Program-made: the position numbers and the translations under genes
Part shown: positions 5,801 through 59,461 of the stretch, piece after piece
Layout: each line of letters starts with the position of its first letter
Numbering within the stretch: position 1 is the first letter of the stretch
Notes under the pieces: generated by a model
Database searches by the model: none
The model's input: only the letters and a program-made list of their open reading frames with translations
Told to the model about the DNA's origin: nothing
Assembly: GCA_050116575.1 (NCBI GenBank)
Contig: JASFOJ010000002.1
Location: 559-64,558, forward strand
Direction: 5' to 3'
DNA: 64,000 nucleotides
From: Gammaproteobacteria bacterium
GTDB lineage: Bacteria > Pseudomonadota > Gammaproteobacteria > SZUA-152

Positions 5801-6691
5801 GCAAACGTGCCGCGCCAGACCGCCCGGGAATTACTGGCGCTGGAGGACGATAAAACCATCCCCATTATTCGCAATCCTGAAGAGTTAACCGATGACACGG
5901 AAAGTGTATTCTATTTTCCGGGCTGCGGTTCCGAGCGGCTGTTCAGTCAAATTTCACTGGCCACCATTGCCATGTTGTACGACACCGGTGTCCAAACCGT
6001 GCTGCCGCCCGGTTACCTGTGCTGCGGGTACCCGCAAACTTCCAGTGGTGACGAAGAAAAAGGTAAACAAATCTCTGTCAACAACCAGGTGCTATTTCAC
6101 CGCGTGGCCAATACGCTGAACTATCTGGACATTAAAACCGTCCTGGTATCCTGCGGCACCTGTATCGACCAACTGGAGAAATACCGGTTTGATAAAATAT
6201 TTCCCGGCTGCCGCCTCATGGACATCCATGAATTCCTGATGGAAAAAGGCGTCACGTTACAAAACCCATCGGGCGTGCAATATCTGTATCACGATCCCTG
6301 TCATACACCGTTGAAGAAATACAGTCCCGCTAAAGTTACCCGCGCCCTGTTACAACAGGAGGTTCCGCTCTCCGACCGTTGTTGCGGCGAAGCGGGTACC
6401 TTCGCGGTATCGCGGCCAGATATAGCTACCCAGGTACGCTACCGTAAACAGGAAGAACTGACTAAGGGAATCCATCAACTGACAGGGGAAACGCTCGCCC
6501 GCGAGGGAAATGTGAAACTATTAACCTCCTGTCCGGCGTGCCAACAGGGACTGTCCCGCTACCGCAATGAAACCGGCCTGGATACCGACTACATCGTCGT
6601 GGAACTGGCCAATCAGCTGTTGGGTGAAAACTGGCAAGCGGAGTTTATCGAGCGCGCTCGCAAAGGCGGCATTGAACAGGTATTACTGTAG
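2828..6691 (+). CDS. DUF3683-FAD-linked oxidase-(Fe-S) oxidoreductase fusion protein (YdiJ-like 2-hydroxyacid dehydrogenase)
   Basis: The 1287-aa product uses a GTG start. Its N-terminus carries REIPYNYTS (DUF3683). A central FAD-binding PCMH domain ([15 protein letters not shown]) and a glycolate-oxidase-like C-terminal domain (EHGIGITK) follow. The distal part has two CxxCxxCxxxCP ferredoxin clusters and CCG domains like GlcF. Confidence 0.85.
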
Positions 6692-38887: not shown

Positions 38888-38999
38888 TGGTTACAACTGA
38901 GCATTTTTTATCGGTGACTGAGATTCAACGTCCATATAGCCGGCGATGAACAGCTATATCGATGTAAGCGATAACCATAAAACACTCACCGCTCGCTAC

Positions 39000-41354
39000 T
39001 TATTCAGATGTTGTATCGTCCGTACCAGCCACATATTGAGCATGAGGCCTCGTTATTTGCTGATTTTCGCCCAGTATATCGCGAACTGCCGTTAACACCT
39101 GGTCAATACTGTAAGCTCCTTTCTGGATAATGAAGGAAACACGCTTTTCGAGGCGATAACTTTCATTTTCATCGAGTTCCATTGCCGTTAACGCGATAAC
39201 CGGTATTCCCCGCCAGCGCTCGTTGAGCTCCAGTTCGTTCAGAAATTCATGGCCATTCATATTGGGCATCAACAAATCCAGCAGGATAACGGAGGGAATG
39301 CGTTCGGCAACACGCATAAGCCCGAGGTAACCGTTTTCCGCTTCGATAACCGCATACCCGTCGTTTTCCAGCACCAACCGCGCCAATTTTCTTGCATCGG
39401 CGTCGTCATCTACAACCAGAATAGTATCCTGGCCCGCCTTGCGCACGCATTGGTTAATGGTTACGACAAGTTTCTCCCAATCAATGGGTTTGGTCAAATA
39501 TGCCGTGGCCCCCAGCGAATAGGCGGTATTTTTCTCGTCAATCATCGTCAGCATAATGACCGGAATATGCACCAGTCCCGGCTGGCTTTTAACATAAGTT
39601 AGTACCTGCCAACCACTCATATCGGTCAACATCACATCCAGCAGAATAACATCGGGTAGCAGCTCATTAATCTTTTTAATACCCTCTTCACCCCCCGTCG
39701 CACAAACAACCTGGTAGCCGTTTTTTGCCAAGTGGCGCTGCTGCAGATCACAGGCCATGGGATCGTCATCAATAATCACAATGGTACTGGTTTTGGTGCG
39801 CCGGTCATATTCCAATTCCCTGATACCCGCTTGCTGGGTGCGGACTTTGCTATACGAGCCACGCGGTTTTTGCGGCACCTGCTCCGACGTATCCGTTGAT
39901 TCCGGCTCCTTGATCACGACGGGCAGAGAGAGGGTAAATACCGAACCTTTCCCTAAATCACTCTCAACGGATATTTCCCCACCCATTAACCGGCAAAATT
40001 TCTGGCTGATCGTCAAACCCAGACCGGTACCACCATAGCGACGGGTCGTCGACATATCCGCCTGTGAAAATGCATTGAACAGGGTCTCCATTTGACTATC
40101 GGATAAACCGATCCCCGTATCGGTTACCACAAACTTGACCCATTCCTCCCCGTCCAGCATTTCCCGGTGGACGTGCAGCTTTATTTTGCCACCTTTGGTA
40201 AACTTGACGGCGTTGCTTAGCAGATTAAGCAACGACTGCCGCAGTTTCATAATATCGACCTTAATGGTGCCGACACCTTCCGGGCAATCAACTTCAATGT
40301 CGTCATCATTCTTGCCCGCCATCGGCTTGACGATACTAACCACCTCCTCCACCAACAAATGAACCTTTACATCCTCCAGGTACAATTGCATGCGGCCGGC
40401 TTCTATTTTGGATAAATCCAGTACGTCATTAATCAGCGCCAGGAGATTTTTACCGGCCGCGTAAATCTTGTTCAAATCATTATTGAGATGAGGATGGTCG
40501 ATGTTAGCTGATTCCTCCCGTAACATTTCACTGTAGCCAATAATGGCGTTAAGAGGCGTCCTCAACTCATGACTCATATTGGCCAGAAACTGGCTTTTTG
40601 CCTTGTTGGCCGACTCGGCCTGCAACTTCTCCTTGAGGGCATTTTGGGCGGCTTCGTGCTCCAGGCGCAATTGCTCGTCGCGCAGGCTTAACCGTGAAAA
40701 CAACTGGTTCACCGCCTGCCAAACCTGTCTGATTTCCATGGCCATTTTCTTTTTTGGATACGGGACGCTGGTGGATTTATTGAGATCCACCGACTCCAGA
40801 TAATGCGCAAGCACATGTAACGGGTTCAGCAACGTGGATATTTTGCGCTGCACAATAAGAATCAACAGCACCACCGCCACCAACGCCATAAACAGGCGTT
40901 TTTCAGCGTCGTCTATTAAATGATGATATAACTCGCTGTTGTACTCCAAGTGAACCTTGCCAAGCAAACCGGAAGTCGCCGAATCGAATATCGGCGTATC
41001 TGCCACAAAAGGTTCGTACTCAAGCTTAATGGGGTTTGAACGTTCTATAACTTCGCCGGACACCAGTGCCACTTTGATACTGACAACCAGCGGGCGTTTC
41101 AATTTGGAGTCTTTTAACAACACCAGGTGGTTTAAGATTTCCTCCACCTGCCCCAGATCATTGTTATTAATGGACTGCTCAATAAGTCTCGTATAAGGTG
41201 TCACCAGCAGGTCAGCCTTGGTTTGCTCACCGCCCTTGATAACCGGCACCATCATGAACACCCAGTGCGTAGATATTGCGACCATCACGAACAACATGAT
41301 CCCTACCAGGAACAGCGTCACTTTATTGGTTATTCGGCCAAAAAACTTACTCAT
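39000..41354 (-). CDS. Hybrid sensor histidine kinase (TM sensor-HisKA-HATPase-REC-REC)
   Basis: It has an H-box MSHELRTPLNAIIGYSEML and a G-box GGTGLGLTIS. The two receiver domains are VIIDDDPMAC...ILLDVMLTDMSG and LVVDDDADAR...ILLDLLMPNMNG. It has no Hpt domain. Confidence 0.9.
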   Translation of the reverse strand: MSKFFGRITNKVTLFLVGIMLFVMVAISTHWVFMMVPVIKGGEQTKADLLVTPYTRLIEQSINNNDLGQVEEILNHLVLLKDSKLKRPLVVSIKVALVSGEVIERSNPIKLEYEPFVADTPIFDSATSGLLGKVHLEYNSELYHHLIDDAEKRLFMALVAVVLLILIVQRKISTLLNPLHVLAHYLESVDLNKSTSVPYPKKKMAMEIRQVWQAVNQLFSRLSLRDEQLRLEHEAAQNALKEKLQAESANKAKSQFLANMSHELRTPLNAIIGYSEMLREESANIDHPHLNNDLNKIYAAGKNLLALINDVLDLSKIEAGRMQLYLEDVKVHLLVEEVVSIVKPMAGKNDDDIEVDCPEGVGTIKVDIMKLRQSLLNLLSNAVKFTKGGKIKLHVHREMLDGEEWVKFVVTDTGIGLSDSQMETLFNAFSQADMSTTRRYGGTGLGLTISQKFCRLMGGEISVESDLGKGSVFTLSLPVVIKEPESTDTSEQVPQKPRGSYSKVRTQQAGIRELEYDRRTKTSTIVIIDDDPMACDLQQRHLAKNGYQVVCATGGEEGIKKINELLPDVILLDVMLTDMSGWQVLTYVKSQPGLVHIPVIMLTMIDEKNTAYSLGATAYLTKPIDWEKLVVTINQCVRKAGQDTILVVDDDADARKLARLVLENDGYAVIEAENGYLGLMRVAERIPSVILLDLLMPNMNGHEFLNELELNERWRGIPVIALTAMELDENESYRLEKRVSFIIQKGAYSIDQVLTAVRDILGENQQITRPHAQYVAGTDDTTSE

Positions 41355-41955
41355 AATGCTTCGACATTTCCAATAGCAGGGGGTTAATTTTAATCCCGGA
41401 AGCCTTTAGTGTGTTGTTGTTAAAGTAAGGAAACACCCGGCTTGTAATTGCCAACCCGACGGTTGCCCCTCTTTCCACATCACCGGAATATGGCGAAAAT
41501 ACGATAATACCCTTATTGATTCCGTAACCGACCAGTTCCTTGAAATCGGCTTCACCCAAAGGCTCGGCAACAAATATCGCCGTTGGTGTAACAGCCGTGT
41601 CCTTCAATTGCTCCTCAAGGGGTAAAGGAACAGATTCCACCTTAATGTTAACAATATTGGAATTATTTTCTTTAACGATAGCCGCCAACTCCGTTGCACG
41701 GCTTTTATTACGATCATAGATGAAGACAAGGCGCACCCTGTTATCGGCCGTTAACTTGGCGTGGAAATTGGCGTCCACGGCGACGATTCGGGGAAACAAC
41801 GGCAGTGAAATTTTCACCCGCCGTTCCGTCGCCTCAGTAGCAAAACAGCTGGAAATGACGCAACTGGCCATCAACACCAGGGCAACCCATACAGGCGCAG
41901 CATAGCAAACGGAATAACGAATATGTGGCGGCGTCGTCATGATCAGGCAGGTCAA
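41347..41955 (-). CDS. YfiR-like periplasmic protein (DUF4154)
   Basis: The 202-aa secreted protein overlaps the kinase start by 8 nt and the receptor stop by 4 nt. Its size and position match DUF4154 proteins that accompany sensor kinases. The family call is tentative. Confidence 0.45.
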   Translation of the reverse strand: MTCLIMTTPPHIRYSVCYAAPVWVALVLMASCVISSCFATEATERRVKISLPLFPRIVAVDANFHAKLTADNRVRLVFIYDRNKSRATELAAIVKENNSNIVNIKVESVPLPLEEQLKDTAVTPTAIFVAEPLGEADFKELVGYGINKGIIVFSPYSGDVERGATVGLAITSRVFPYFNNNTLKASGIKINPLLLEMSKHYE

Positions 41956-44156
41956 TTAAATTTGTAATCAACGCGGAGGAAAATCTCCCGCCCGGATTGC
42001 GGGTAGTCATTTTGGTAGCCGGGCTTGGACACCCCGCCCAAAGGCATTGAAACCATGGGCGACGGATATATCACATCATTGTCGAACAGGTTACGGATAC
42101 CGGCCCGTAAATTGAAGTTACGCCGCCCAAGGTTGAAAACATTAGCGGAAATATCAAATACCGTGTAACCATCCAGCGCTGGACGGGTATCCGATACCTC
42201 ACGCCCCCTGTCACCCACTGCTTTCATTTGAAAACCAAATGCGTAGTCGGGCCATGGCTGGATCAACAACGCCAGGCTTCCCGTCAATTGGGCAACACCG
42301 GGCACTTCATCGCCGGTCTGATCGTTTTCAGCATTCAATGATGTTAATGTGGTATCGATCTTGAGCTTCCTTGTTAATTGATGCTGCAATTCCAGCTCCA
42401 GACCGGCGGTTTTGATTTTTCCCTGGTTGACGTAGCGCTTGTTTAACGTATCAATAACAATCAGATCCTGAACGCTGAAATAAAATACCGTTGAACGGAA
42501 CACTGTAACGCCACTGTTATATACGTAACCCGCCTCAATCGTATCCACATTCTCCGACTTCAGATCCGGATTGCCCTGTACCACCAGGTTGTTCTGGGTA
42601 TACATTTCGAGAAACGTCGGTGGCCGGAACGACCGCGCGTATTGAAACTTCAATGTCTGCATATCCGCAAGCTGATAGACACCAGCAAACCGCGGGGTAA
42701 TGTCACTGTCGACATCACTATAATCGTCGAAACGCAAGCCCATGGTCAGTTTGAACCGGTCATTCACGGCAAACTGATCCTGCGCATAGACGCCGACCAC
42801 CCGCCGACTGTGGTTTTCTTCGAGCCAGTTTTGATTCCCACTCAAACGCAGGACGGCGTAGGATGGATCGATGGGCTGTAGCGTTTGGGGGTCGTAGTTA
42901 CGATTAACATAAGTCTCCCCTTGATCAATCCAGGAAATATCAATACCCAGCAACCAATCATGATCTGCCATACCCTTGTAGTTGAACTCCGATCCCACAT
43001 AGATCCTGTCGTCTTCGTAGTTGGGACCGCCCAACACGCCATCGGGATAAACAAACGGCGACGACGGCGACGAGGGATTGGGTACGGAAAAATCCGCCGG
43101 GAACAACTCATGGGTCACGCTGTCCAGGTCAAAGGTCAACAAACCAACCGTGCCTTTTGCGCGCCAGTCCGGCCGGATTTGCCATTTGCGGGACAATTCG
43201 AAACTGTTCATGGTAATAGTTCTGACCACATGCTGATGGTCTTCCGGCAACGCATTGGCCAAACCAAAATAGTCACCGATTCCCTGCTGCACGTGCTGCC
43301 AGCTGAACAGGTAATCCCGGTAATCAACATCCAGTATCAGCGCCTCATGGTCTTCCTTGTTGTTGATTTTACCGGGTGCGTTGGATATTCCTTGCTGCGA
43401 AGTTCCGAACAAAATATCGGGTCCGGCCTCCACGTCGCCGCCATCCGCTGATACACGCGCTACATTGAGATTAAACGACAGGTCCTTGCCGGGTAGTTCA
43501 TCCGAATACATACCGCCATAGGTTCTTTTACCCAGGTCACTGACACTTGCAAATAGCCCCGTCTCATTCTTGCGGGTAATAATATTAATGACCCCAACCG
43601 AGGCGTATTCCCCGTAGATGGCCGATCCCGGCCCACGAATCACTTCGATGCGTTCCACCTGTTCAATGGGAAGAATCAGCAACGTGGTCGCCGCGCCAAG
43701 GGTCGCATTAAACGGCGTGTTGTTTAATAGAAACTTAACCTTGTTGCTGAAAAAAGATTTACCAATACCGCGCACCAGGATTTGCGGCTGGCCGTCATTG
43801 GTCCGCGAGATTTCCACACCGGGGATCAATCCCAAAGCTTCGTGAACATTTTGCACCCCGCGGGCCAGTAAATCCTTGCCGTGCAATACACTCATAATGC
43901 CCGGCACGAAGTCCACATTCATTTTGGTTTTGGTTGCCAGTTCTGTTTCCTGGTCCAGCAACTGAACCAGTTCCTGTAACACTTCGTCGGTATGTTGTTC
44001 GTGGACAGGCGGCGTCACCTCAGATGCGCCCTCTTCCTCTGGCGGTGGAAGTTCCTGGGCGTAGGTGGATATGGGTCCGCCCGATAAAATGAACAAACCA
44101 GCAAGCAACCACCGGCCTGCAAGATGTCGGATATGATTAACTGGAAAAATGCGCAT
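41952..44156 (-). CDS. TonB-dependent outer-membrane receptor
   Basis: It has a signal peptide, a plug domain (VEISRTNDGQPQILVRGIG, IEVIRGPGSAIYGEYASVGVINIITR), and a long beta-barrel with a C-terminal aromatic ending. Confidence 0.85.
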   Translation of the reverse strand: MRIFPVNHIRHLAGRWLLAGLFILSGGPISTYAQELPPPEEEGASEVTPPVHEQHTDEVLQELVQLLDQETELATKTKMNVDFVPGIMSVLHGKDLLARGVQNVHEALGLIPGVEISRTNDGQPQILVRGIGKSFFSNKVKFLLNNTPFNATLGAATTLLILPIEQVERIEVIRGPGSAIYGEYASVGVINIITRKNETGLFASVSDLGKRTYGGMYSDELPGKDLSFNLNVARVSADGGDVEAGPDILFGTSQQGISNAPGKINNKEDHEALILDVDYRDYLFSWQHVQQGIGDYFGLANALPEDHQHVVRTITMNSFELSRKWQIRPDWRAKGTVGLLTFDLDSVTHELFPADFSVPNPSSPSSPFVYPDGVLGGPNYEDDRIYVGSEFNYKGMADHDWLLGIDISWIDQGETYVNRNYDPQTLQPIDPSYAVLRLSGNQNWLEENHSRRVVGVYAQDQFAVNDRFKLTMGLRFDDYSDVDSDITPRFAGVYQLADMQTLKFQYARSFRPPTFLEMYTQNNLVVQGNPDLKSENVDTIEAGYVYNSGVTVFRSTVFYFSVQDLIVIDTLNKRYVNQGKIKTAGLELELQHQLTRKLKIDTTLTSLNAENDQTGDEVPGVAQLTGSLALLIQPWPDYAFGFQMKAVGDRGREVSDTRPALDGYTVFDISANVFNLGRRNFNLRAGIRNLFDNDVIYPSPMVSMPLGGVSKPGYQNDYPQSGREIFLRVDYKFN

Positions 44157-47175: not shown

Positions 47176-48396
47176 TTATAGATTATTCTCCGCAACCAGT
47201 TCAATCCAGTGTTTTACCGGCACGGAAGCGTCCCGTTGCAGATGCTTCAGGCAACCGATATTGGCGGTGGCAATCATCTGCGGCTGGTGTTTTTCCAGCG
47301 CCGTTAATTTATTAATCAGCAATTGCTCGGAAATAGCGGTCTGCAGTAGCGCATAGGTTCCCGCCGCGCCACAGCACAAGTGGGCATCGGCGACGGGCAC
47401 CAGTTCATAGCCCAGCCGTTGTAACAGGGATTCCACCACACCGTCCAGTTGCTGGCCGTGCTGCAGGGTACACGGCGATTGAAAAGCGAGTTTTTGCGGT
47501 TCCGCCAACACCTTGAGGGCACCCGCATCAACACTGGTGACCACTTCACTGATATCTTTGGCCAGCGCCGAAACCCGCCGTGCTTTTTCGCCATAGCGCG
47601 CATCGCTTCGCAACAAATAGCCATAGTTTTTCACATGGGGAGCACAACCACTGGCGGTCACGACAATGGCTTCGATACCTTCCTCGATGAGAGGCCACCA
47701 ACGATCGATATTACGGCGCATGGTTTGCGCGGCGTCATCGGTCTTTGCCAGGTGCTGACTTACCGCACCGCAGCAGGTGTTATTCTCCGGCTCCTCGACC
47801 AGGGTAATGCCGAGCCGGTCAGCCACCTGGGCAGCGGCGCGATTGATGTCCGGCGCCAGTTGCGATTGTACACAGCCCTTTAACAACAACATCTTTTTCG
47901 CATGCGTGGAAGCCGGAAAAGACAGGCGCGGTTTTTTAACTTCCAGCCCCGATTCCAGGTGCGTCGGCACCACGTATTTAAACCAGCGGCCCAACGCCAG
48001 CAACCAGCGAAAGCGTTGTACATTGGGCAATACCTTGTTAAACACCGACCTTTTCAACCGTTGCCAGGCAGGACGCGGCACTTTTGTTTCGACCAGTTGT
48101 TGGCCGATTTCCAGCAACCGGGAATACTCCACGCCCGACGGACAGGTGGTTTCACAGGCCCGGCAAATAAGACAGCGGTCGAGATGCAACTGCGATTTTT
48201 CGCTGACCTCTTTGCCTTCCAGCATCTGTTTAATGAGATAAATGCGCCCGCGCGGCCCGTCCAGTTCATCGCCCAGCAACTGATAGGTGGGACAGGTAGC
48301 ATTGCAAAACCCGCAATGCACACAACGGCGCAGAATATCATTGGCAATTTTGCCTTCGTCAGAATCGGTATAAGGTTTGACGAAATCCGTGCGCAT
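47176..48396 (-). CDS. glcF: Glycolate oxidase iron-sulfur subunit
   Basis: It has two ferredoxin motifs (CVHCGFCNATCP, CLICRACETTCP) plus CCG domains. Confidence 0.85.
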   Translation of the reverse strand: MRTDFVKPYTDSDEGKIANDILRRCVHCGFCNATCPTYQLLGDELDGPRGRIYLIKQMLEGKEVSEKSQLHLDRCLICRACETTCPSGVEYSRLLEIGQQLVETKVPRPAWQRLKRSVFNKVLPNVQRFRWLLALGRWFKYVVPTHLESGLEVKKPRLSFPASTHAKKMLLLKGCVQSQLAPDINRAAAQVADRLGITLVEEPENNTCCGAVSQHLAKTDDAAQTMRRNIDRWWPLIEEGIEAIVVTASGCAPHVKNYGYLLRSDARYGEKARRVSALAKDISEVVTSVDAGALKVLAEPQKLAFQSPCTLQHGQQLDGVVESLLQRLGYELVPVADAHLCCGAAGTYALLQTAISEQLLINKLTALEKHQPQMIATANIGCLKHLQRDASVPVKHWIELVAENNL

Positions 48397-49472
48397 CAGA
48401 TTTCGTCCTCATACATTCGATGCCGATTGAGAATTTTTTCCGGATCAAAAGCGTGTTTCAGTTTATGATGGATCGCCATCAACGCCGCCGGTAACGGGTG
48501 AAACACACCCATCGATTCCTGCTGCTGCCAGTACTCGCGGTGTCGAAACAACGTGGCGTACCCGCCTTCCGCCGCAACGGCATCGCGTACGTCACCGGGC
48601 GGTAAATCGGTTTTCAGCCAGCGCAGCGCACCGCCCCAGTCAAATAACCAGTTGCCGGGTATTCCCAGATGCAATGTTGCCGGCGCCAGCGATAACCGCC
48701 ACAGGGGAAAATCATCGCCGAAGAAAAAATGTTCCTGCTCTTTCAATTGCCGCCAAAAGTCAGCGCCATGCTGCAATTGATCGCCGGCGATTTTCCGCCG
48801 CGCTTCTTTGATACCCGCTTCAGTGCCGGAAAGGCGTATAATGACCGCTTCGCCGTCATAGCAAAGGGCACTCAGCGGCAACGGCTGTCCGGCGCGGGCG
48901 CTCATAATATCAATGGCTTCATTCACATGTGCCGGCATGGCCAGCGTCACTTCATGTTCCGGGATGGGTAATACTTTGAGTGACACCTCCAGCACCACGC
49001 CCAGGGTACCCAATGCGCCCGTCATTAAACGGGATACATCATAGCCGGCAACATTCTTGATCACCTTGCCGCCGAATTCGATGACTTCCCCTTTACCGGT
49101 CAACACCTTGCAACCCAGTACAAAATCGCGCGCACTGCCCGCAAACGGGCGGCGCGGACCGGAAAGTCCACAGGCAATGGTGCCGCCAATAGTGGCACTG
49201 TCGCCAAAAGCCGGGGGTTCAAAGGGCAGCATCTGACCTTCAGCCGCCAGTTGTTGTTGCAACTCCCGTAACGGCGTGCCGGCGCGTACCGTGACCACCA
49301 GTTCTTTGGGTTCGTATTCCACCACACCGTTGTGACCATTTACGGCCAACGGCTTGCCGTCGCAGTCATTGCTGTAAAACGTTTTTGAACCGCCGCCGTT
49401 GATCACCAGCGGCGTTTTATCGTTGTAGGCCTGCTCCACCTGCGCCTGCAATTGTTGGGTAATATCGCTCAC
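48396..49472 (-). CDS. glcE: Glycolate oxidase FAD-binding subunit
   Basis: The 358-aa product has a FAD-binding PCMH domain and overlaps the glcF start by 1 nt. Confidence 0.85.
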   Translation of the reverse strand: MSDITQQLQAQVEQAYNDKTPLVINGGGSKTFYSNDCDGKPLAVNGHNGVVEYEPKELVVTVRAGTPLRELQQQLAAEGQMLPFEPPAFGDSATIGGTIACGLSGPRRPFAGSARDFVLGCKVLTGKGEVIEFGGKVIKNVAGYDVSRLMTGALGTLGVVLEVSLKVLPIPEHEVTLAMPAHVNEAIDIMSARAGQPLPLSALCYDGEAVIIRLSGTEAGIKEARRKIAGDQLQHGADFWRQLKEQEHFFFGDDFPLWRLSLAPATLHLGIPGNWLFDWGGALRWLKTDLPPGDVRDAVAAEGGYATLFRHREYWQQQESMGVFHPLPAALMAIHHKLKHAFDPEKILNRHRMYEDEI

Positions 49473-49495
49473 GGGGTCGTCTTGGCTTTTAAGTT

Positions 49496-50962
49496 TTAGA
49501 ACCTTTCGAGTTCCGGGAACGGCATATTACCGTCATGGATATGCATGGCACCGAACTCGGCGCAGCGATGCAGAGTGGGCACGGCTTTTCCGGGATTTAA
49601 CAACTGCTTGTCGTCGAAGGCGTGCTTGATGGCGTGAAACTGCTGCAAGGCAAGAGGCGAAAACTGCACGCACATTTGGTTGATTTTCTCGACGCCCACA
49701 CCGTGCTCGCCGGTAATGGTACCGCCCACTTCGACGCAGGTTTCGAGAATCTTTCCGCCCAGTTGCTCCGCCTGTTGCAACTCACCTTCCTTGTTAGCAT
49801 CATAAAGAATCAGCGGATGCAAATTGCCGTCACCGGCATGAAACACATTGGCCACCGCCAATCCATACTCGGCCGATAGATCGGCAATGCGTTGCAACAC
49901 GTGGGGTAATTGGTGCCGCGGTATGGTGCCATCCATGCAGTAATAATCCGGCGAAATACGCCCCACGGCGGGAAACGCCGCTTTGCGCCCTTTCCACATG
50001 AGGTCCCGTTCTTGGGCGCTGGATGATACCCGCACCAGGGTGGCGCCGGCCTGTTTCAATACGGTATCCACGCGGCTGATTTGTTCCTGAACCTCGTCTT
50101 TCGTTCCGTCCAGCTCGCACAACAGGATGGCAGCGGCATCGGTGGGATAACCGGCATGCACAAACGCTTCACTGGCCCGTATGGACGGATTGTCCATCAT
50201 TTCCAGCCCGGCAGGCACGATACCGGCGGCGATAATATTGCCCACCGCGCGACCTGCTGACACCACGTCATCGTAAGCGGCCAATACCACTTGTGCCGCG
50301 GGCGGTTTAGGCAACAGCTTGACGGTAATCTCCACGATAATAGCCAGCATGCCTTCGGAACCGGTCATTAGCGCCAGTAAATCGTATCCGGCGGCATCGT
50401 AGCCGCTGCCACCAAGGGTTAACAACGCCCCGTCAGCGGTAACGACTTTTAATTGCTGGATATTGTGGACGGTCAGGCCATATTTCAGGCAATGGACACC
50501 GCCTGAGTTTTCCGCCACGTTACCACCAATGGAACAGGCGATTTGCGACGAGGGGTCCGGCGCATAATAAAGGCCATAAGGGGCCGCCGCTTCCGAGATC
50601 GCCAGGTTGCGCACCCCGGGTTGCACCCGTGCCGTGCGGTTCAACTGGTCAATGTCCAGAATTTGGTTGAATTTCGCCAGGCTGAGTAAAACGCCATGAG
50701 ATAGGGGCAACGCACCGCCCGATAATCCAGTGCCGGCACCGCGGGCCACGATGGGCACCCCGGCCGCGGCGCAATGGCGAACTATGGCCTGAACCTGGTC
50801 AATAGTCTCCGGCAGAACCACCAGCCAGGGCAGTTCGCGATAAGCGGATAATCCGTCGCATTCATAGGGGCGCAAATCCTCTTCCGAGGTTAATATGGCG
50901 GAATCCGCCAGGCAGGTTTGCAACTGGCGAATCAGTTGCTGTTTTTGATGAGTGTCAGGCAC
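49496..50962 (-). CDS. glcD: Glycolate oxidase subunit GlcD (FAD-linked oxidase)
   Basis: The 488-aa product has VVARGAGTGLSGGALP and a C-terminal GEHGVG. Confidence 0.9.
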   Translation of the reverse strand: MPDTHQKQQLIRQLQTCLADSAILTSEEDLRPYECDGLSAYRELPWLVVLPETIDQVQAIVRHCAAAGVPIVARGAGTGLSGGALPLSHGVLLSLAKFNQILDIDQLNRTARVQPGVRNLAISEAAAPYGLYYAPDPSSQIACSIGGNVAENSGGVHCLKYGLTVHNIQQLKVVTADGALLTLGGSGYDAAGYDLLALMTGSEGMLAIIVEITVKLLPKPPAAQVVLAAYDDVVSAGRAVGNIIAAGIVPAGLEMMDNPSIRASEAFVHAGYPTDAAAILLCELDGTKDEVQEQISRVDTVLKQAGATLVRVSSSAQERDLMWKGRKAAFPAVGRISPDYYCMDGTIPRHQLPHVLQRIADLSAEYGLAVANVFHAGDGNLHPLILYDANKEGELQQAEQLGGKILETCVEVGGTITGEHGVGVEKINQMCVQFSPLALQQFHAIKHAFDDKQLLNPGKAVPTLHRCAEFGAMHIHDGNMPFPELERF

Positions 50963-54881: not shown

Positions 54882-55742
54882 ATGCCGTATCAAATAAAAA
54901 ATCCATTAGCAGTACTTGGCCGAATCATCGCTGTTGGCGTTCTGGTTAGTTCAGTGAATGCTTGCAGCACCGTTTCCATGGTTAACGAAGACGCTGCCAC
55001 ACAGGCGAGCAATATTGAGAAGAATCCTGCGTCCGTTAGCGGATTTGTCGTCGACACCGACGGCGTTACCCCCATTTACGGTGCCACTGTTGCAGTGGTA
55101 TCCACCGACACCGCTGATGCAAAAACTTTCCGTGGTGACAGCGATCATTGCGCCACACCCGCTGAACCACATCAAAGCTATACCTGTACCCGGGAAGACG
55201 GTTCTTTTACGGTAAATATCTCGGCTGCCAGTGAGTTTCCTGTTACCGTCCGTATCGAAAATGGAAGCAATACGCATGAAATCACCATCAACCGGGACGA
55301 CGTCAACAGTGATCTGGGCGTCGTGGTCATGTCACAACAAACCGTCGCCAACAAGGATAAAGTCGCTGTGGTCATGGATTTTTACAATCCTGTTGATCAA
55401 ATCAAGGAATTTCTCGATGACAACCCGTCACAACTGCAAAGCGTCAAGCTACAACTGATGAACGAATACGAGTCCCTTTACCAGATCAGCAGCGACAAAC
55501 AGGACGTTTCCTATCCCACGTTTTATTCGTTGTTTATTGACGGGGACAAAAACGGCAAACCGGACATCTTTAACTATGATGTGGTGTACATTAATAGCCG
55601 CGACGAGTCCGATATCGCACAGTTGGATGAATCAATCCGTAAACAGTTGCTGGCGTTTATTAACAACGGCGGCCAGTTGTATGTCACTGAGTGGACGGTT
55701 GAAATGGAACAAGAAGAGCCAGGGGCGGATCAGTATATCTGA
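54882..55742 (+). CDS. Lipoprotein, hypothetical (N-terminal beta-sandwich, carboxypeptidase-regulatory-like)
   Basis: It has the lipobox LVSSVNAC. The GFVVDTDGVTPIYGATVAVVS segment resembles CarbopepD_reg-like Ig folds. The C-terminal half is of unknown function. Confidence 0.6.
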   Translation: MPYQIKNPLAVLGRIIAVGVLVSSVNACSTVSMVNEDAATQASNIEKNPASVSGFVVDTDGVTPIYGATVAVVSTDTADAKTFRGDSDHCATPAEPHQSYTCTREDGSFTVNISAASEFPVTVRIENGSNTHEITINRDDVNSDLGVVVMSQQTVANKDKVAVVMDFYNPVDQIKEFLDDNPSQLQSVKLQLMNEYESLYQISSDKQDVSYPTFYSLFIDGDKNGKPDIFNYDVVYINSRDESDIAQLDESIRKQLLAFINNGGQLYVTEWTVEMEQEEPGADQYI

Positions 55743-55805
55743 TGAGTATGGTTAACAGGCTTTCGTTGTTTACATAGCGACCGATCACCTAACCATTGAC
55801 TAAAA

Positions 55806-55835
55806 AAAAGAGGCCGCTAGGCCTCTTTTTTTGTC
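55806..55835. terminator. Bidirectional rho-independent terminator
   Basis: An A-run, then AAGAGGCC-gcta-GGCCTCTT, then a T7 run. It lies between convergent genes ending at 55742(+) and 55912(-). Confidence 0.8.
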
Positions 55836-55911
55836 CGGTCGTACCGGGCTGGTAAAAACACCCGTGGTCGTTTTCAATACGCCGTCTTGGCGGATGTCGT
55901 GCCTTCGTGCT

Positions 55912-56958
55912 TTACTCTTCTTCGCTGAGCAGGTCTTCCCAATACTCCTCGGGCATGTCCTGAGCCAGCGCTAGCGCACCGTCGGCGCTGGCATAGGTGG
56001 GATCCTCCACCGCGCTTACCGTACAGGGACCATCTTCTTTCAAGGCATTCTCGATGTACTTGGCCAGGCCCTTGATCTGGCTGCCGCCACCTGCAAGGAC
56101 GATATTTTCGCGGACAATTTCCTGATATTCGGGATCAAAGCGGGAAATGAGTTCCATGGCGTTTTCAATAATCGCCGGCAAGACACTCTCGCACGCCCTA
56201 CCCATTTCCTCGGTAATATCATGAATCATAATGCGTCCCGCGACGGGGATCTCCACTTCGATTTTACCTTTAATGGTTCCGACATAGGCATACATCTCCT
56301 TGAAACCACGCACCATATTCATGTTGAAATCCGATTCTGGATATTTATCCTTCATCATTTCATAGAGCTGCATGTCGATATAATCACCGGCGGTCACGAT
56401 GGTGCGCTGGTCATCTTCAGTGGGCATGGAACCATGCATGATGCAGAAGTCCGTGGTGCCCGCGCCAATGTCAATAACGATAGCGTTATTCAACAAACCG
56501 CGGCCGTAGGCGGCGGCAAAAGGCTCGGAAACCACCATCAGGGAATCCACATAATCCTGCACCGCGCGCTTGATCGCCAGCTTGTTGGCGCGCAACGATT
56601 CGGCGGGAACGCCGACCACCGCGTAGATCTCCTGGCTGTCCATCGCACCCACCAGTTCCAGCAGGTAACCGACAAGTTCCTGTACAGCCTCTTCATCGCG
56701 TGAAATACCTTCTTTAATAACACCGTGTTCCAGGGGACGGACCAGTTCCAGCGACAGCCGGTTTTCCAATGCCTCCTTGCCGAATAACACCGGCTTACCC
56801 AAAACTTTTTCGGATATAAAGTCCTTTGGCCAACCGACGTAACTGGCAACATAGTCGCGCACTCCGTTGCTGGCGGATATTGCACTACGCGAGGTTCCCA
56901 AATCGATACCAACTCGCATTCTACTGCTGCGCTTTGGCGAGCTTTTCTTTTTCGCCAT
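55912..56958 (-). CDS. Actin-like ATPase, MamK-like (MreB/actin superfamily)
   Basis: It has actin-fold motifs VGIDLGTS, IVIDIGAGTTDFCIM and VLAGGGSQIKGL. By recall it aligns to MamK along its full length (YVGWPKDF, VVGVPAESLRANK, VVSEPFAAAYG, DPTYASADGALALA..PEEYW). A perfect AGGAGG RBS precedes the start. It has a Lys-rich N-terminal tail MAKKKSSPKRSSR. Confidence 0.8.
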   Translation of the reverse strand: MAKKKSSPKRSSRMRVGIDLGTSRSAISASNGVRDYVASYVGWPKDFISEKVLGKPVLFGKEALENRLSLELVRPLEHGVIKEGISRDEEAVQELVGYLLELVGAMDSQEIYAVVGVPAESLRANKLAIKRAVQDYVDSLMVVSEPFAAAYGRGLLNNAIVIDIGAGTTDFCIMHGSMPTEDDQRTIVTAGDYIDMQLYEMMKDKYPESDFNMNMVRGFKEMYAYVGTIKGKIEVEIPVAGRIMIHDITEEMGRACESVLPAIIENAMELISRFDPEYQEIVRENIVLAGGGSQIKGLAKYIENALKEDGPCTVSAVEDPTYASADGALALAQDMPEEYWEDLLSEEE

Positions 56959-58126
56959 TCCTTTTGCCTCCTACACTGGTGTTTTTATTCAAATAAGAAA
57001 CTATGCCCTGTTCCAGAAACGCGGCGATATTTTCCCGATACTCTGATGTTGTTAATCGTTTCTCTTCTCTCGGATTACAAAAACAAGACACCTCAGTCAA
57101 TATACTGGGGGCATCCAAATTCAGCAGCACGACGAAAGGCGCAGACTTAATACCATGGTCGTTGGTATCCCCGTTTATTTGCTTCATCCGGCCATACAGG
57201 TTTGTCTGGACCGAATACGCCAATTGACGGGATTCCTGAAATTTCATGGTATCGCCTATTTTCTGGATTATCTCCTTAAAGTCTCCGTATTCATAATGCG
57301 AATCCGCATTTTCCCGCTCCGCGAGATCGGCAACCTTGGCGTCGTTTGTCGAACCGAAATAATATGTTTCTATAAAACTTTTTTCACTGGGAAAATAGTT
57401 TATATGAATCGAAATAAACAAATCCGCGTTATTGGCGTTGGCATACTCGACACGATCATTTAATGCGATGGTGTCATCGCTGGCGCGCGTCATTAATACT
57501 TCATAACGATCATACTTTGCAAGACGCTTGCGCAACCGTTTGGCTATTTCCAGCGCAATATCCTTCTCGTAAATACCCGACTTGCCAATGGCACCCGGGT
57601 CTTTGCCACCATGGCCCGGATCGATCACAATCGTCCTGACGCCCAGTCCAAACAATTGCGCCAGAGGTACGCCATTATTCGTTAATGACTGAAATTTGGC
57701 CGGATCAATGTCGCTGTCATCCAAGCGCGGCAATGCCGAACCTTCCAAGTTATCGACACTACTCAGGTTTTTTTGAAGCATTTTTGGCAACGGTGTGGCA
57801 TTTGTTCCGGAACCGGCGGTATTACCGATTTCCAGCGGAACGGCTTTCGCTTCGCCACCGCTGGCCGGCGATGATTCTCCCGCCGGTATCGGCTGGGGAT
57901 TTAACCCTATTTGCGCCCACGGGTATTGCCACTGGCTCAACACGCCGGCCACGACCAGGATCGCTGCCACACTGACAACGATCGCCGCATGCGATTTTCG
58001 CTTATGTAAAGAGCGTTCCGGTTGCTGTGCACCTTTTTTGGCAGGAGCTTCCCCTTTGCCCGCGACCCATAAATTCTCCTGGTAAATCCCTTTGAGAATT
58101 TCTCGCTTGTTTGATGGCTTGAACAC
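56921..58126 (-). CDS. Membrane-anchored N-acetylmuramoyl-L-alanine amidase (Amidase_3, AmiC-type)
   Basis: It has a GTG start. An N-terminal TM helix (AAIVVSVAAILVVAGVL) is followed by a low-complexity linker. The C-terminal Amidase_3 domain has IVIDPGHGGKDPGA ... LFISIHINYF. Its 3' end overlaps the actin-like gene by 38 nt. Confidence 0.85.
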   Translation of the reverse strand: MFKPSNKREILKGIYQENLWVAGKGEAPAKKGAQQPERSLHKRKSHAAIVVSVAAILVVAGVLSQWQYPWAQIGLNPQPIPAGESSPASGGEAKAVPLEIGNTAGSGTNATPLPKMLQKNLSSVDNLEGSALPRLDDSDIDPAKFQSLTNNGVPLAQLFGLGVRTIVIDPGHGGKDPGAIGKSGIYEKDIALEIAKRLRKRLAKYDRYEVLMTRASDDTIALNDRVEYANANNADLFISIHINYFPSEKSFIETYYFGSTNDAKVADLAERENADSHYEYGDFKEIIQKIGDTMKFQESRQLAYSVQTNLYGRMKQINGDTNDHGIKSAPFVVLLNLDAPSILTEVSCFCNPREEKRLTTSEYRENIAAFLEQGIVSYLNKNTSVGGKRNGEKEKLAKAQQ

Positions 58127-58834
58127 AGCTTACCCAACTTTACGACATCGTTGCATCCGAACGCCGGCAACCGATACCCGACCGCTTACATTCCAAATGT
58201 TTACAAGAAAAATGCCAACTTTTCAACCAGATACATACACTGCGACAACGATGACGCAATGTTTTTCATTCCGTGGCGCCCAAAATCCAGCGACAATGTC
58301 AGGTATCATCGTTAGCCACCCATGGGTGCTAACGAACGCTGTAAGCAGAGCAATGGAAGCATGTTACGGCCCGTGCCCCATGACGACGTATTGGCCGTCA
58401 TTTCTGTCTATTAAATGCACCGTACCTGGTTGATTAATATGACATAACCTTGACACTGGAATTACGGATGTTGGCGCATCTAGCATGGAACTACAAATTT
58501 GGTGCCAGATCAACGATAATTAGATAGTAATCTGTGAACAGCGTAACAAATTTTGATCGCATTTTTATTTAACCCTGTTCAACGGTTAAACAAATCGCCT
58601 GACTGCCTGTTTCAGGGGCACTATAAACCAGGCTATCGGCAATACCTCACATTTTTGCCTTTCGGTTGCCGTTTTTTACCAAAATAGCTAAATCTTCAGG
58701 CGGACAATCCGCTGTATTTTGGGTAACGCCTGGTAGCAAGTATAGACGCCCCTGCCGGATCATTGGAAAAAATGCCGGTAGCTTGCTGGTATCGGCTCCA
58801 TTTATGAACATAAAACAGGCAGATTTAAAGGCAT

Positions 58835-59461
58835 ATGATCAATAACATGAGAGCAATTGAGCAACCTTTGATGGCGACACCCACTGTACAAAAGCTGGGA
58901 GACGACAACCAGAAAATATTGATGTCATTTGCGCGCCAGCAACTGTCGCATATCGAATCAAATTCGATCAAGAAGAACTCGTTTCAGCTGTTTTTGATCA
59001 CCGCATTTTTATACGGTGCCATTCAGCAATTGGGCAAACAATCAACACTGCCCAAACACCTCAGCAATCACTATCTGCACAAAATCCTCATCGAAACGTT
59101 TTCCCTGCCCCCCCATAACGCCGAGGGCCTGGTGAGTTCCATTAACCGCATGATGAAGAAGTACTACTTGCTGGAAAACATTTATTTCGACGGGGAATCG
59201 GCGGCCGAACAGTGGCTGGTCAACGATGAATGTGAATGCACAGAACTAAAAACCCTGCTCGACCGCTATGAAAACTTTACCATGCTGGACATGAACGCCG
59301 CCGGCATGAAATCCGACGTCCCGGCATTCGATCAGCCACAGGATAGAGATCCAACACCTGACACCAACGGTTCAAGCGGTGGGACGTTGAAATTTGTGGT
59401 TGCGTTAATTGCGCTCGCCGCACTGGCGGGTGTTGCTTATTTCTTTTCCCTTAAAGGATAA
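58835..59461 (+). CDS. Hypothetical tail-anchored membrane protein
   Basis: The 208-aa product has a C-terminal TM helix LKFVVALIALAALAGVAYFF and no recognisable domain. Confidence 0.45.
   Translation: MINNMRAIEQPLMATPTVQKLGDDNQKILMSFARQQLSHIESNSIKKNSFQLFLITAFLYGAIQQLGKQSTLPKHLSNHYLHKILIETFSLPPHNAEGLVSSINRMMKKYYLLENIYFDGESAAEQWLVNDECECTELKTLLDRYENFTMLDMNAAGMKSDVPAFDQPQDRDPTPDTNGSSGGTLKFVVALIALAALAGVAYFFSLKG

What the first reader, a model, noticed from the sequence alone, without database searches (positions are those of the whole stretch)
55912..58126. Translationally coupled operon: membrane-anchored AmiC-type peptidoglycan amidase followed by a MamK-like actin homolog
Two minus-strand genes overlap by 38 nt: amidase 58126..56921 and actin-like 56958..55912. 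The downstream gene has a perfect AGGAGG RBS embedded in the amidase 3' end, and a bidirectional terminator follows at 55806-55835. The 348-aa actin-fold protein (VGIDLGTS, IVIDIGAGTTDFCIM, LAGGGSQIKGL) matches MamK block by block across its whole length far better than canonical MreB, going by my recall of the MamK sequence. No other magnetosome genes are present in the window. It also carries an unusual polybasic N-terminal tail (MAKKKSSPKRSSR) that could mediate membrane or nucleic-acid contact. I do not know of a described system in which an actin-like cytoskeletal filament is genetically coupled to a cell-wall hydrolase. One possibility is a filament that positions or activates the amidase. 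The ~700-bp non-coding region upstream (58127-58834) would then hold the regulatory elements.
Basis: partly seen in the sequence, partly recalled or inferred. Interest (0 to 1): 0.78.

Follow-up and report, generated by a model that had tools for sequence, protein, structure and literature searches.

The report
Actin-like filament gene wired to amidase
A membrane-anchored cell-wall-cutting enzyme and a MamK-type bacterial actin are encoded as an overlapping gene pair that recurs in every related genome examined across several phyla, which points to an undescribed cytoskeletal system that probably places or switches on a peptidoglycan amidase.

Summary
On the minus strand, a 401-aa amidase gene (56921..58126) overlaps a 348-aa actin-like gene (55912..56958) by 38 nt. 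AGGAGG lies 8 nt before the second ATG, and a strong terminator follows.

The actin is not MreB. It aligns without gaps to Magnetospirillum MamK (E=2e-83, against 2e-12 for MreB) and just passes NCBIfam's MamK model. It belongs to a separate clade from magnetosome MamK (99.5% bootstrap), and the window holds no mam genes.

The amidase has a conserved cytoplasmic N-terminal helix (ILxGxYxENL), one transmembrane helix, a disordered linker, and an AmiA/B/C-type catalytic domain with the regulatory insertion.

The pair is conserved: 87/87 loci of the main clade, 54/54 testable loci of a sister clade, and 3/3 searches started from the amidase. The genes overlap by 4-59 nt in 85/85 loci. In some lineages a third gene follows that encodes REC-SPOR, SPOR or PilZ-AMIN membrane proteins, all of which bind septal peptidoglycan.

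Best reading (inferred): the filament binds the amidase tail to position or activate wall cleavage, probably at division. I found no paper that describes this. Rating: new variant of a known kind; interest about 0.7.

The parts
56921..58126 (-). Gene for a bitopic (N-in, C-out) N-acetylmuramoyl-L-alanine amidase, 401 aa, GTG start
   Evidence: ORF list. Pfam Amidase_3, E=7e-49. Identical to NCBI protein P0241, 401 aa. AF2 model with domain layout.
58064..58117 (-). Cytoplasmic N-terminal helix (aa 4-21) carrying the conserved motif K-R-x-I-L-x-G-I-Y-x-E-N-L (aa 7-19 = 58070..58108); proposed docking peptide for the actin
   Evidence: N18 is invariant in alignments A1 and A4. The motif is present in all loci with complete upstream DNA and in nearly all full-length homologues. 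The sister clade has the variant LLRE[AV][IV]R[ED]N[VI]. AF2 predicts a helix at aa 4-21, pLDDT 58-72.
57929..57997 (-). Single transmembrane helix (aa 44-66), preceded by a basic stretch (positive-inside, so the N-terminus is cytoplasmic)
   Evidence: AF2 helix at aa 44-66, pLDDT up to 91. Hydrophobic window starting at aa 45 (score 2.4) in the identical protein P0241; 111/120 homologues have such a segment.
57647..57928 (-). Variable, disordered periplasmic linker (aa 67 to about 160)
   Evidence: pLDDT below 50 for most of it (aa 71-77 and 81-138), rising to about 60 towards aa 160. Length and sequence vary in A1.
57002..57631 (-). Amidase_3 catalytic domain (aa 166-375) of the AmiA/AmiB/AmiC kind; H172, E187, H241 and E345 are invariant
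   Evidence: Pfam. PDB phmmer: E. coli AmiA 8C2O 9e-32, AmiC 4BIN 1.6e-26. Foldseek: best hits AmiA, AmiC, with AmiB 8C0J at rank 7. Invariant columns.
57233..57337 (-). Insertion of about 35 aa (aa 264-298, 'KVADLAERENADS...') corresponding to the regulatory (autoinhibitory) helix region of AmiA/B/C
   Evidence: The domain aligns straight through this stretch to AmiA and AmiC. Amidases that lack the insertion (4RN7, 1JWQ) align in two pieces or stop at aa 263. E272 and N273 are invariant. AF2 helices at 263-273 and 280-290 have lower pLDDT.
56967..56972 (-). Shine-Dalgarno AGGAGG for the actin gene, inside the 3' end of the amidase gene, 8 nt before the ATG
   Evidence: Direct reading. An SD core of at least 5 nt, mostly 6-9 nt (range 4-10) before the homologous ATG, in nearly all of the 88 loci.
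56921..56958 (-). 38-nt overlap of the two reading frames (translational coupling inferred)
   Evidence: The overlap is 4-59 nt, median 32, in 85/85 related loci.
55912..56958 (-). Gene for a MamK-family actin-like ATPase, 348 aa, of the amidase-linked clade (signatures SYVGWPKDF and DFCIMHG)
   Evidence: NCBIfam MamK 413 bits (cut-off 400), BeeR 236 (530), MreB 77 (293). PDB MamK E=2e-83, gapless. Foldseek: MamK filament 5LJV, TM 0.86. Clade bootstrap 99.5%. The nucleotide-binding motifs and E145 are invariant.
56920..56958 (-). Basic N-terminal tail of the actin (MAKKKSSPKRSSR); specific to this lineage
   Evidence: Across the clade the tails have median net charge +1 and only 55% are positive, against a median of 0 for magnetosome MamK. 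pLDDT is below 50 for aa 1-10.
55803..55832 (-). Intrinsic terminator ending the two-gene operon (A-tract, GC stem, U-tract; usable from both strands)
   Evidence: RNA fold -24.7 kcal/mol, z = -4.97. Sequence.
58127..58834 (.). 708-bp spacer between the amidase gene and a divergent gene; presumably holds the promoter(s), but no element was identified
   Evidence: No Rfam match above the gathering score. No sigma-70-like site on the minus strand within it. Only 58405..58823 is 71% identical to locus L008.

Best explanation
This is a chromosomal two-gene operon that encodes the two halves of a trans-envelope unit.

Gene 1 encodes a peptidoglycan amidase anchored in the inner membrane. Its short N-terminal amphipathic helix (ILKGIYQENL) faces the cytoplasm. 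Its AmiA/B/C-type catalytic domain, which still carries the autoinhibitory insertion, hangs in the periplasm on a flexible linker.

Gene 2 starts inside the end of gene 1 and has its own strong ribosome-binding site. It encodes a MamK-family actin that (by inference) polymerises with ATP in the cytoplasm.

Proposed mechanism: the filament binds the conserved cytoplasmic helix of the amidase. It thereby gathers, positions or moves the enzyme, and may help release its autoinhibition. Stem peptides are then cut from the glycan strands only where the filament dictates, most likely at the division septum during daughter-cell separation.

Shown: gene anatomy, family assignments, domain layout, strict conservation of the pair and of the overlap across phyla, the conserved tail motif, and separation from magnetosome MamK.

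Inferred: polymerisation, tail-filament binding, translational coupling, and the septal role.
For: Anatomy and overlap.

Actin identity: MamK model 413 bits against a cut-off of 400, MreB far below its cut-off. Gapless match to MamK, E=2e-83. The fold is closest to the MamK filament, TM 0.86. Phosphate-binding loops, E145 and the adenosine motif are invariant.

Separate clade: bootstrap 99.5%, with only 38-47% identity to magnetosome MamK but 59-91% within the clade across phyla. It groups with a sister clade at 99/100.

Pair conservation: an amidase lies directly upstream in 87/87 loci from Gammaproteobacteria, Nitrospirota, Desulfobulbaceae/Thermodesulfobacteriota, Rhodocyclaceae and Syntrophaceae, with unrelated flanks. 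The same holds in 54/54 testable sister-clade loci. In reverse, 3/3 distant amidase homologues have the actin gene downstream. Magnetosome MamKs (3/3) instead sit among mamI/E/M/O/P, with no amidase within 5 kb on either side.

Amidase layout: cytoplasmic helix 4-21, transmembrane helix 44-66, catalytic domain at pLDDT above 90. Closest to E. coli AmiA/AmiC/AmiB, including the regulatory insertion.

Tail motif: conserved, with invariant Asn, in both clades.

Septal clue: recurrent third genes directly after the actin encode bitopic proteins with periplasmic SPOR or AMIN domains and cytoplasmic receiver or PilZ domains. By established knowledge, SPOR binds the glycan left by amidases, and AMIN targets AmiB/AmiC to the septum.
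Against: - No direct evidence of contact between the tail and the actin.
- The tail helix has only moderate confidence (pLDDT 58-72). It could instead be a membrane-surface helix.
- The SPOR/AMIN genes are lineage-specific and absent from this window, where a terminator follows the actin gene.
- Polymerisation is assumed from homology. The actin model is poor in subdomain IB (aa 38-87).
- The trees are neighbour-joining with weak deep nodes.
- There are no expression or phenotype data, and no promoter was found.
- The literature search covers open-access papers only.
Confidence: 0.55

Rival explanations
1. The roles are reversed. The filament's main job is something other than wall hydrolysis, such as shaping or positioning a membrane invagination, an inclusion or another cargo, as MamK does for magnetosomes. 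The amidase tail would then serve mainly as the membrane anchor for the filament, with local wall cutting only as an accessory step.
For: The protein is sister to magnetosome MamK, which organises membrane invaginations. Other MamK relatives outside magnetotactic bacteria have been linked speculatively to cell size or vesicles (PMC10580974; 10.1101/2022.04.11.487978).
Against: The only universally conserved partner is the amidase. The recurrent extra partners bind peptidoglycan (SPOR, AMIN), not cargo. The catalytic and zinc-binding residues of the amidase are invariant, so its enzymatic activity is under selection.
Confidence: 0.2
2. The actin-like protein does not form filaments. It acts as a monomeric or dimeric ATP-driven regulator that signals across the membrane to release the amidase's autoinhibitory helix, playing the role that FtsEX-EnvC plays for AmiA/AmiB.
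For: The amidase keeps the regulatory insertion, and no LytM activator gene lies next to it in the window. The ATPase residues are invariant.
Against: The protein matches a filament-forming protein without gaps at about 41% identity, and the model fits the MamK filament conformation best. The very high conservation across phyla (59-91%) is typical of polymer-forming cytoskeletal proteins. A single transmembrane helix followed by a disordered linker of about 90 aa is a poor transmitter of conformational change.
Confidence: 0.12
3. It is a mobile or phage-derived cassette: an endolysin together with a ParM/Alp-type partition actin.
For: PHROGs gives endolysin hits for the amidase (1.5e-28) and a 'partition protein' hit for the actin (6e-12).
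Against: These hits are generic to the fold and much weaker than the MamK and AmiA matches. The endolysin hits cover only the first half of the domain. The flanks are housekeeping genes and differ between genomes. GC content is unremarkable. The gene tree follows taxonomy.
Confidence: 0.03
4. It is a true magnetosome MamK, or a relic of a magnetosome cluster.
For: It passes the NCBIfam MamK model by 13 bits and is annotated 'MamK family' in NCBI.
Against: No mam genes were found among the ORFs tested across the 64 kb window or around the related loci. It forms a distinct clade. Real MamKs sit in mamI-E-J-K-L-M-O-P clusters.
Confidence: 0.02

Closest known systems
MamK, the magnetosome actin of Magnetospirillum (PDB 5LJV, 5LJW, 5JYG)
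   Same: Same fold and length. The alignment is gapless at about 41-44% identity. The protein passes the NCBIfam MamK family model and has the same nucleotide-binding residues. It is predicted to resemble the filament conformation.
   Different: It belongs to a separate, better-conserved clade with its own signatures (W43, H175 and P238 in place of Y, K and R). It is never found in a magnetosome cluster. It is always preceded by an amidase gene, whereas magnetosome MamKs have no amidase within 5 kb on either side.
E. coli cell-division amidases AmiA, AmiB and AmiC (PDB 8C2O, 8C0J, 4BIN)
   Same: Amidase_3 catalytic domain with the inserted regulatory helix region. AmiA and AmiC are the two best sequence and fold matches, and AmiB (8C0J) follows at rank 5 and 7.
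   Different: It scores far below the equivalog cut-offs (127 against 400 for AmiA; 110 against 700 for AmiC). It has no AMIN domain and no exported soluble form. Instead it has a conserved cytoplasmic helix plus a signal-anchor transmembrane helix. Its gene is fused in an operon with an actin gene.
FtsA-FtsN (and MreB-RodZ): an actin-like protein that holds a bitopic membrane protein by its short cytoplasmic N-terminal peptide (established knowledge)
   Same: Same logic: a cytoplasmic actin-fold protein, a single-pass partner with a short conserved cytoplasmic N-tail, and a periplasmic domain that acts on or binds peptidoglycan. In some lineages a SPOR protein, like FtsN, is encoded next door.
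   Different: The actin belongs to a different family (the FtsA model scores 25.8 bits against a cut-off of 176). The tethered partner is itself the hydrolase. The interaction is inferred here, not shown.
B. subtilis MreB isologues controlling the autolysins LytE and CwlO (PMC3817527)
   Same: This is a described case in which actin-like filaments govern cell-wall hydrolases.
   Different: Those hydrolases are endopeptidases, they are controlled indirectly (secretion or FtsEX), and their genes are not linked to the actin genes. Here the amidase and actin genes overlap, and the enzyme carries its own cytoplasmic tail.
Other MamK relatives outside magnetotactic bacteria: BeeR (PMC11929497), saltatorellin (10.1101/817700), Bbp (PMC10580974)
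   Same: All are MamK-like actins of unknown cellular role in non-magnetotactic bacteria.
   Different: BeeR is more distant (about 33% identity; model score 236 against a cut-off of 530). Bbp sits in an operon with a Kelch-domain protein, not an amidase. None of these papers mentions an amidase.

Membership tests
MamK family (NCBIfam NF040964, broad sense) | Scores above the curated whole-protein cut-off of the family model | tested here: met
   413 bits against a cut-off of 400, aligned over aa 15-344 of 348. This is borderline.
Magnetosome MamK (strict sense) | Encoded within a magnetosome gene cluster (mamI, mamE, mamL, mamM, mamO, mamP and others) | tested here: not met
   No such domains among the ORFs tested across the 64-kb window. 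Control MamKs P0145, P0200 and P0221 all lie in such clusters. The rest of the genome was not available.
Magnetosome MamK (strict sense) | Falls inside the clade of magnetosome-cluster MamKs | tested here: not met
   NJ tree: the amidase-linked clade has 99.5% support and the MamK clade 91%; identity between the clades is 38-47%. The clades remain separate in the 78-sequence tree.
Magnetosome MamK (strict sense) | Forms filaments that align magnetosomes | not testable with these tools
   Requires cell biology.
MreB | Scores above the MreB family cut-offs | tested here: not met
   PRK13927 76.6 against 293; TIGR00904 63.1 against 366. Best PDB MreB E=2e-12. About 28% identity.
BeeR | Scores above the BeeR equivalog cut-off | tested here: not met
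   236 bits against 530. About 33% identity to 8R2N.
Bbp ('big bacteria protein') | Operon of actin, hypothetical protein and Kelch-domain protein (PMC10580974) | tested here: not met
   In the window a terminator follows the actin gene and an amidase gene precedes it. No Bbp sequence was available for direct comparison.
AmiA/AmiB/AmiC cell-division amidases | Amidase_3 catalytic domain with conserved metal and catalytic residues | tested here: met
   Pfam E=7e-49. H172, E187, H241 and E345 are invariant in 38 homologues. Their assignment as zinc ligands and catalytic Glu rests on established knowledge of the family.
AmiA/AmiB/AmiC cell-division amidases | Inserted regulatory (autoinhibitory) helix within the catalytic domain | tested here: met
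   Alignment to AmiA 8C2O and AmiC 4BIN is continuous through aa 264-298. Amidases without the insertion skip it. Whether it actually occludes the active site was not tested.
AmiA/AmiB/AmiC cell-division amidases | Equivalog-level sequence similarity | tested here: not met
   AmiA 127 against 400, AmiC 110 against 700, AmiB 93 against 532.
AmiB/AmiC | N-terminal AMIN targeting domain and export as a soluble periplasmic protein | tested here: not met
   Only Amidase_3 was detected. The N-terminus is a cytoplasmic helix followed by a transmembrane helix.
Phage endolysin / partition cassette | Best matches to phage families and a mobile-element context | tested here: not met
   PHROGs hits are partial and weaker than the cellular matches. 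The flanks are housekeeping genes.

The most novel reading that the evidence does not exclude
This is a previously unrecognised bacterial cytoskeletal system. A dedicated actin grips a peptidoglycan amidase directly by its cytoplasmic tail and so sets where, and perhaps when, the wall is cut. That would be a route to amidase control independent of AMIN targeting, and possibly of FtsEX-EnvC. It is widespread in Nitrospirota, Desulfobulbales, several Gammaproteobacteria and Rhodocyclaceae. In some lineages it is wired to receiver or c-di-GMP (PilZ) inputs through SPOR/AMIN partner proteins. Wall-associated actins of this kind may also be the stock from which the magnetosome actin MamK was recruited.
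Probability: 0.4. Interest if true: 0.85.

Novelty: new variant of a known kind. Interest (0 to 1): 0.72.

Why it matters
How bacteria confine dangerous wall-cutting enzymes in space and time is a central open question. The known answers are AMIN targeting, LytM activators and FtsEX.

An amidase that carries its own cytoplasmic handle and is always co-encoded with an actin suggests a different solution that can be tested directly: cytoskeletal tethering of a hydrolase.

The finding also gives a concrete function to test for the large, unexplained group of 'MamK-like' proteins in non-magnetotactic bacteria, and a possible origin for MamK itself.

Practically, it shows that the database label 'MamK family' should not be read as evidence for magnetosomes.

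Tried and rejected
1. Complex prediction. I joined the amidase tail (aa 1-36) to the actin with a 30-residue Gly-Ser linker and built a genome-paired alignment of 20 sequences (A3).

2. Rfam search of 55600-59000 at E up to 1. It returned only three sub-threshold sRNA hits on the terminator, so no riboswitch or leader was found in the upstream spacer.

3. Promoter and terminator scan. It found no more sites than in shuffled sequence, none useful in the spacer, and it missed the real terminator.

4. Polybasic tail as a conserved membrane or nucleic-acid contact. Rejected as a family feature: median net charge is +1 across the clade, against 0 in magnetosome MamK.

5. The internal Met (MRVGIDL) as the true start. 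Rejected, because most homologues lack an in-frame start there and all have an upstream ATG supported by a Shine-Dalgarno site.

6. Phage or defence origin. PHROGs gave only generic hits. PADLOC was not run.

7. First Biopython bootstrap run. It timed out and I replaced it with a numpy implementation.

8. The divergent 208-aa gene as a third component. It is syntenic only in close gammaproteobacterial relatives, not across the family.

9. Literature searches for MamK together with amidase. They found nothing relevant.
Full report
**1.
- The six-frame ORF list and the sequence show two minus-strand ORFs at exactly the stated coordinates: 56921..58126 (401 aa, GTG start) and 55912..56958 (348 aa, ATG start). 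They overlap by 38 nt.
- AGGAGG lies at 56967..56972, 8 nt before the second ATG.
- Downstream, the sequence AAAAAAGAGGCC-UAGC-GGCCUCUUUUUU (about 55803..55832) folds at -24.7 kcal/mol with z = -4.97. The simple consensus scan missed it.

**2. The actin-like protein.**
- Pfam sees only a generic MreB/actin fold.
- NCBIfam is more specific: the MamK family model scores 413 bits against a cut-off of 400, BeeR scores 236 against 530, and the best MreB model scores 77 against 293.
- Against solved structures, the protein aligns without a single gap to Magnetospirillum MamK (aa 10-343 against 8-341, E=2e-83). BeeR follows at 2e-48 and the best MreB at 2e-12.
- A modest AF2 model (pLDDT 74, poor in aa 38-87) is closest to the MamK filament structure 5LJV (TM 0.86).
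- The phosphate loops, the adenosine motif and the SEPF glutamate (E145) are invariant.

**3. It is not a magnetosome MamK.**
- Pfam scans of 32 ORFs (the pair, 10 neighbouring ORFs of about 145-513 aa, and 20 larger ORFs over 2828-49472) found ordinary housekeeping and metabolic genes. These include YhdP, RNase G, LeuRS, HolA, Lnt, PhoH, MiaB, AmtB, GlcDEF, a TonB receptor and two-component proteins. There is no MamI, magnetochrome, CDF, TauE or other magnetosome domain.
- I retrieved named magnetosome MamKs using the AMB-1 sequence. Three of them (Magnetospira QH-2, a gammaproteobacterium, Mariprofundus) lie in canonical clusters of the mamH-I-E-J-K-L-M-O-P type, in full or in part, with no amidase within 5 kb on either side.
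- A neighbour-joining tree (342 columns, 200 bootstraps, MreB as outgroup) separates an amidase-linked clade (99.5%) from the magnetosome clade (91%). The two are joined at 88%, with BeeR outside them.
- Identity is 59-91% within the amidase-linked clade, although it spans phyla. It is 45-86% within MamK and 38-47% between the two.
- An exhaustive search of 1.84 billion representatives found 1288 related clusters. In a 78-sequence tree of the best of them, the window clade (signatures SYVGWPKD and DFCIMHG) groups at 99/100 with a sister clade (SYVGWPAD and DFCVMNG). Several other MamK-like clades of unknown role also appear. The deep nodes are weak.

**4. The amidase.**
- Amidase_3 covers aa 166-375 (E=7e-49).
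- The catalytic domain aligns end to end with E. coli AmiA (8C2O, 9e-32) and AmiC (4BIN). The alignment includes a stretch of about 35 aa (aa 264-298) that amidases without a regulatory helix lack, so those align in two pieces or stop at aa 263.
- By fold, AmiA and AmiC are the two top hits, and the AmiB-EnvC complex (8C0J) is at rank 7.
- The protein scores far below the equivalog cut-offs and has no AMIN domain.
- AF2 with 38 homologues gives this layout: helix aa 4-21, a basic unstructured stretch, a transmembrane helix aa 44-66, a disordered linker to about aa 140-160, then the catalytic domain at pLDDT above 90. Basic residues before the transmembrane helix place the N-terminus in the cytoplasm and the enzyme in the periplasm.
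- The N-terminal helix carries a motif conserved across phyla, K-R-x-I-L-x-G-[VI]-Y-[ED]-[ED]-N-L, with an invariant Asn.
- The motif is present in every related locus with complete upstream DNA and in essentially all full-length homologues; the exceptions are truncated gene calls. The sister clade has the variant L-L-R-E-[AV]-[IV]-R-[ED]-N-[VI].
- This conservation also validates the GTG start.

**5. The pair is a conserved module.**
- Six homologues chosen across lineages all have an Amidase_3 gene immediately upstream and overlapping the actin gene, amid otherwise unrelated neighbours.
- A scan of one genome per species found 320 genomes with a relative. In the 80 best, plus the earlier loci, a tblastn test found the amidase directly upstream on the same strand in 87/87.
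- The taxa are uncultured Gammaproteobacteria, Chromatiales, Nitrospirota/Thermodesulfovibrionia, Desulfobulbaceae and other Thermodesulfobacteriota, Rhodocyclaceae/Azoarcus, Syntrophaceae and strain NaphS2.
- For the sister clade, a metagenome scan gave 80 loci. All 54 with at least 900 nt of upstream DNA have the amidase. The 9 without a hit have less than 170 nt of upstream DNA.
- Starting instead from three distant amidase homologues (41-46% identity), the actin gene is downstream in all three.
- In 85/85 loci the actin ATG that has a Shine-Dalgarno site lies upstream of the amidase stop codon, giving overlaps of 4-59 nt (median 32). Most loci have no alternative internal start.
- Translational coupling is therefore a reasonable inference, not a demonstrated fact.

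**6. Extra partners in relatives.**
- Clustering all flanking ORFs showed that the only universal neighbours are the two genes themselves. Three lineage-specific third genes nevertheless sit directly after the actin gene:
  - in 29 main-clade loci, mostly Nitrospirota, a receiver domain, acidic linker, transmembrane helix and SPOR;
  - in 18 sister-clade loci, a cytoplasmic region, transmembrane helix and SPOR;
  - in 15 sister-clade loci, PilZ, a transmembrane helix and a C-terminal domain that in one representative passes the AMIN model (25.4 bits against 20.5).
- From established knowledge, SPOR domains bind glycan strands stripped of peptides by amidases, and AMIN domains target AmiB/AmiC to septal peptidoglycan.
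- These neighbours tie the module to septal wall processing. They also repeat the architecture of a cytoplasmic input, a single membrane pass and a wall-binding output.
- They are absent from this window.

**7. Mechanism.**
- The best-supported reading is that the actin polymerises in the cytoplasm and holds the amidase by its conserved amphipathic N-terminal helix. It would thereby position or cluster the enzyme, and possibly help activate it, with septal splitting as the likeliest task.
- The logic parallels FtsA-FtsN and MreB-RodZ. It also parallels ParR-ParM and WH2-actin, where a short helix docks in the cleft between subdomains. Those parallels are established knowledge and were not tested here.
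- Because the regulatory insertion is retained, an activator is probably still needed. Polymer-driven clustering is one candidate.
- Rivals are a cargo-organising filament that merely uses the amidase as an anchor, a non-polymerising ATPase regulator, a phage cassette, or a true MamK. Section 3 argues against a true MamK, and PHROGs gave only generic hits for a phage cassette.

**8.
- The polybasic tail is real in this window and in close relatives, but it is not a family trait.
- 'AmiC-type' should read 'AmiA/B/C-type catalytic domain without AMIN'.
- The 708-bp spacer shows no recognisable element. Only the half next to the divergent gene is conserved with the closest relative.

**9. Novelty.**
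- Full-text searches that combined MamK or bacterial actin with amidase found nothing relevant.
- MamK relatives outside magnetotactic bacteria are known: BeeR (PMC11929497), saltatorellin (10.1101/817700), Bbp with a Kelch-protein operon (PMC10580974), and a Thiomargarita mamK homologue (10.1101/2022.04.11.487978). None of these papers mentions an amidase.
- Actin control of wall hydrolases is known in B. subtilis, but it is indirect and not genetically linked (PMC3817527).
- I therefore rate this a new variant of a known kind: a bacterial actin that organises wall enzymes through bitopic partners. It has good prospects of being a distinct system.
- The library searched holds open-access papers only, so an earlier description elsewhere cannot be excluded.

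Noticed in passing
Related proteins P0366, P0370, P0372, P0375, P0378, P0381, P0386 (not in the window): Many MamK-like proteins are 520-1230 aa long. They have a long acidic, proline-rich or repetitive N-terminal extension fused to a C-terminal MamK-like domain, which is 42-46% identical to the window protein. They form their own clade. Pfam finds nothing in the extensions, which look like a fused MamJ-type adaptor.
   Followed up: partly
L003:9058-10308 and 28 other main-clade loci (mostly Nitrospirota); L169 and L172 (gene starting 986 nt after the actin GIDLG motif); L128 and L165: Third genes directly after the actin gene encode bitopic proteins: receiver domain + SPOR, SPOR alone, or PilZ + AMIN. 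This suggests phosphorylation or c-di-GMP input into the module in some lineages. AMIN was detected in one of the two PilZ proteins tested.
   Followed up: partly
window 58835-59461 (+): The divergent 208-aa protein has no Pfam match and a C-terminal transmembrane anchor. It is kept next to the amidase gene in the closest gammaproteobacterial relatives (L008, L010, L001/L011; 49-73% identity) even where the downstream flank differs (L001). It is not found in other lineages.
   Followed up: partly
window 58405-58823: This half of the long spacer, next to the divergent gene, is 71% identical at the DNA level to locus L008, while the half next to the amidase start gave no match. There is no Rfam family here and no convincing ORF.
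   Followed up: no
window 55803-55832: The consensus terminator scan did not report this hairpin, although it is the strongest terminator-like structure in the region by folding energy.
   Followed up: yes
window 2828-6691 (+): A 1287-aa fusion protein combines DUF3683, an FAD-linked oxidase, a 4Fe-4S dicluster, CCG domains and DUF3400. A separate GlcD/E/F-like set lies at 47176-50962.
   Followed up: no
window 33498-34826 (-) and 37712-44156 (-): A cytochrome c554/c7-like multihaem protein. Further on, a cluster of a response regulator with an HD-type domain, a hybrid histidine kinase and a TonB-dependent receptor.
   Followed up: no
L005:10231-12457 (Desulfobulbaceae locus): Two Band_7 (flotillin-like) genes lie about 3 kb from the pair. 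A preprint on Thiomargarita notes a mamK homologue next to a Band_7 gene. I did not test whether this is more than coincidence.
   Followed up: no
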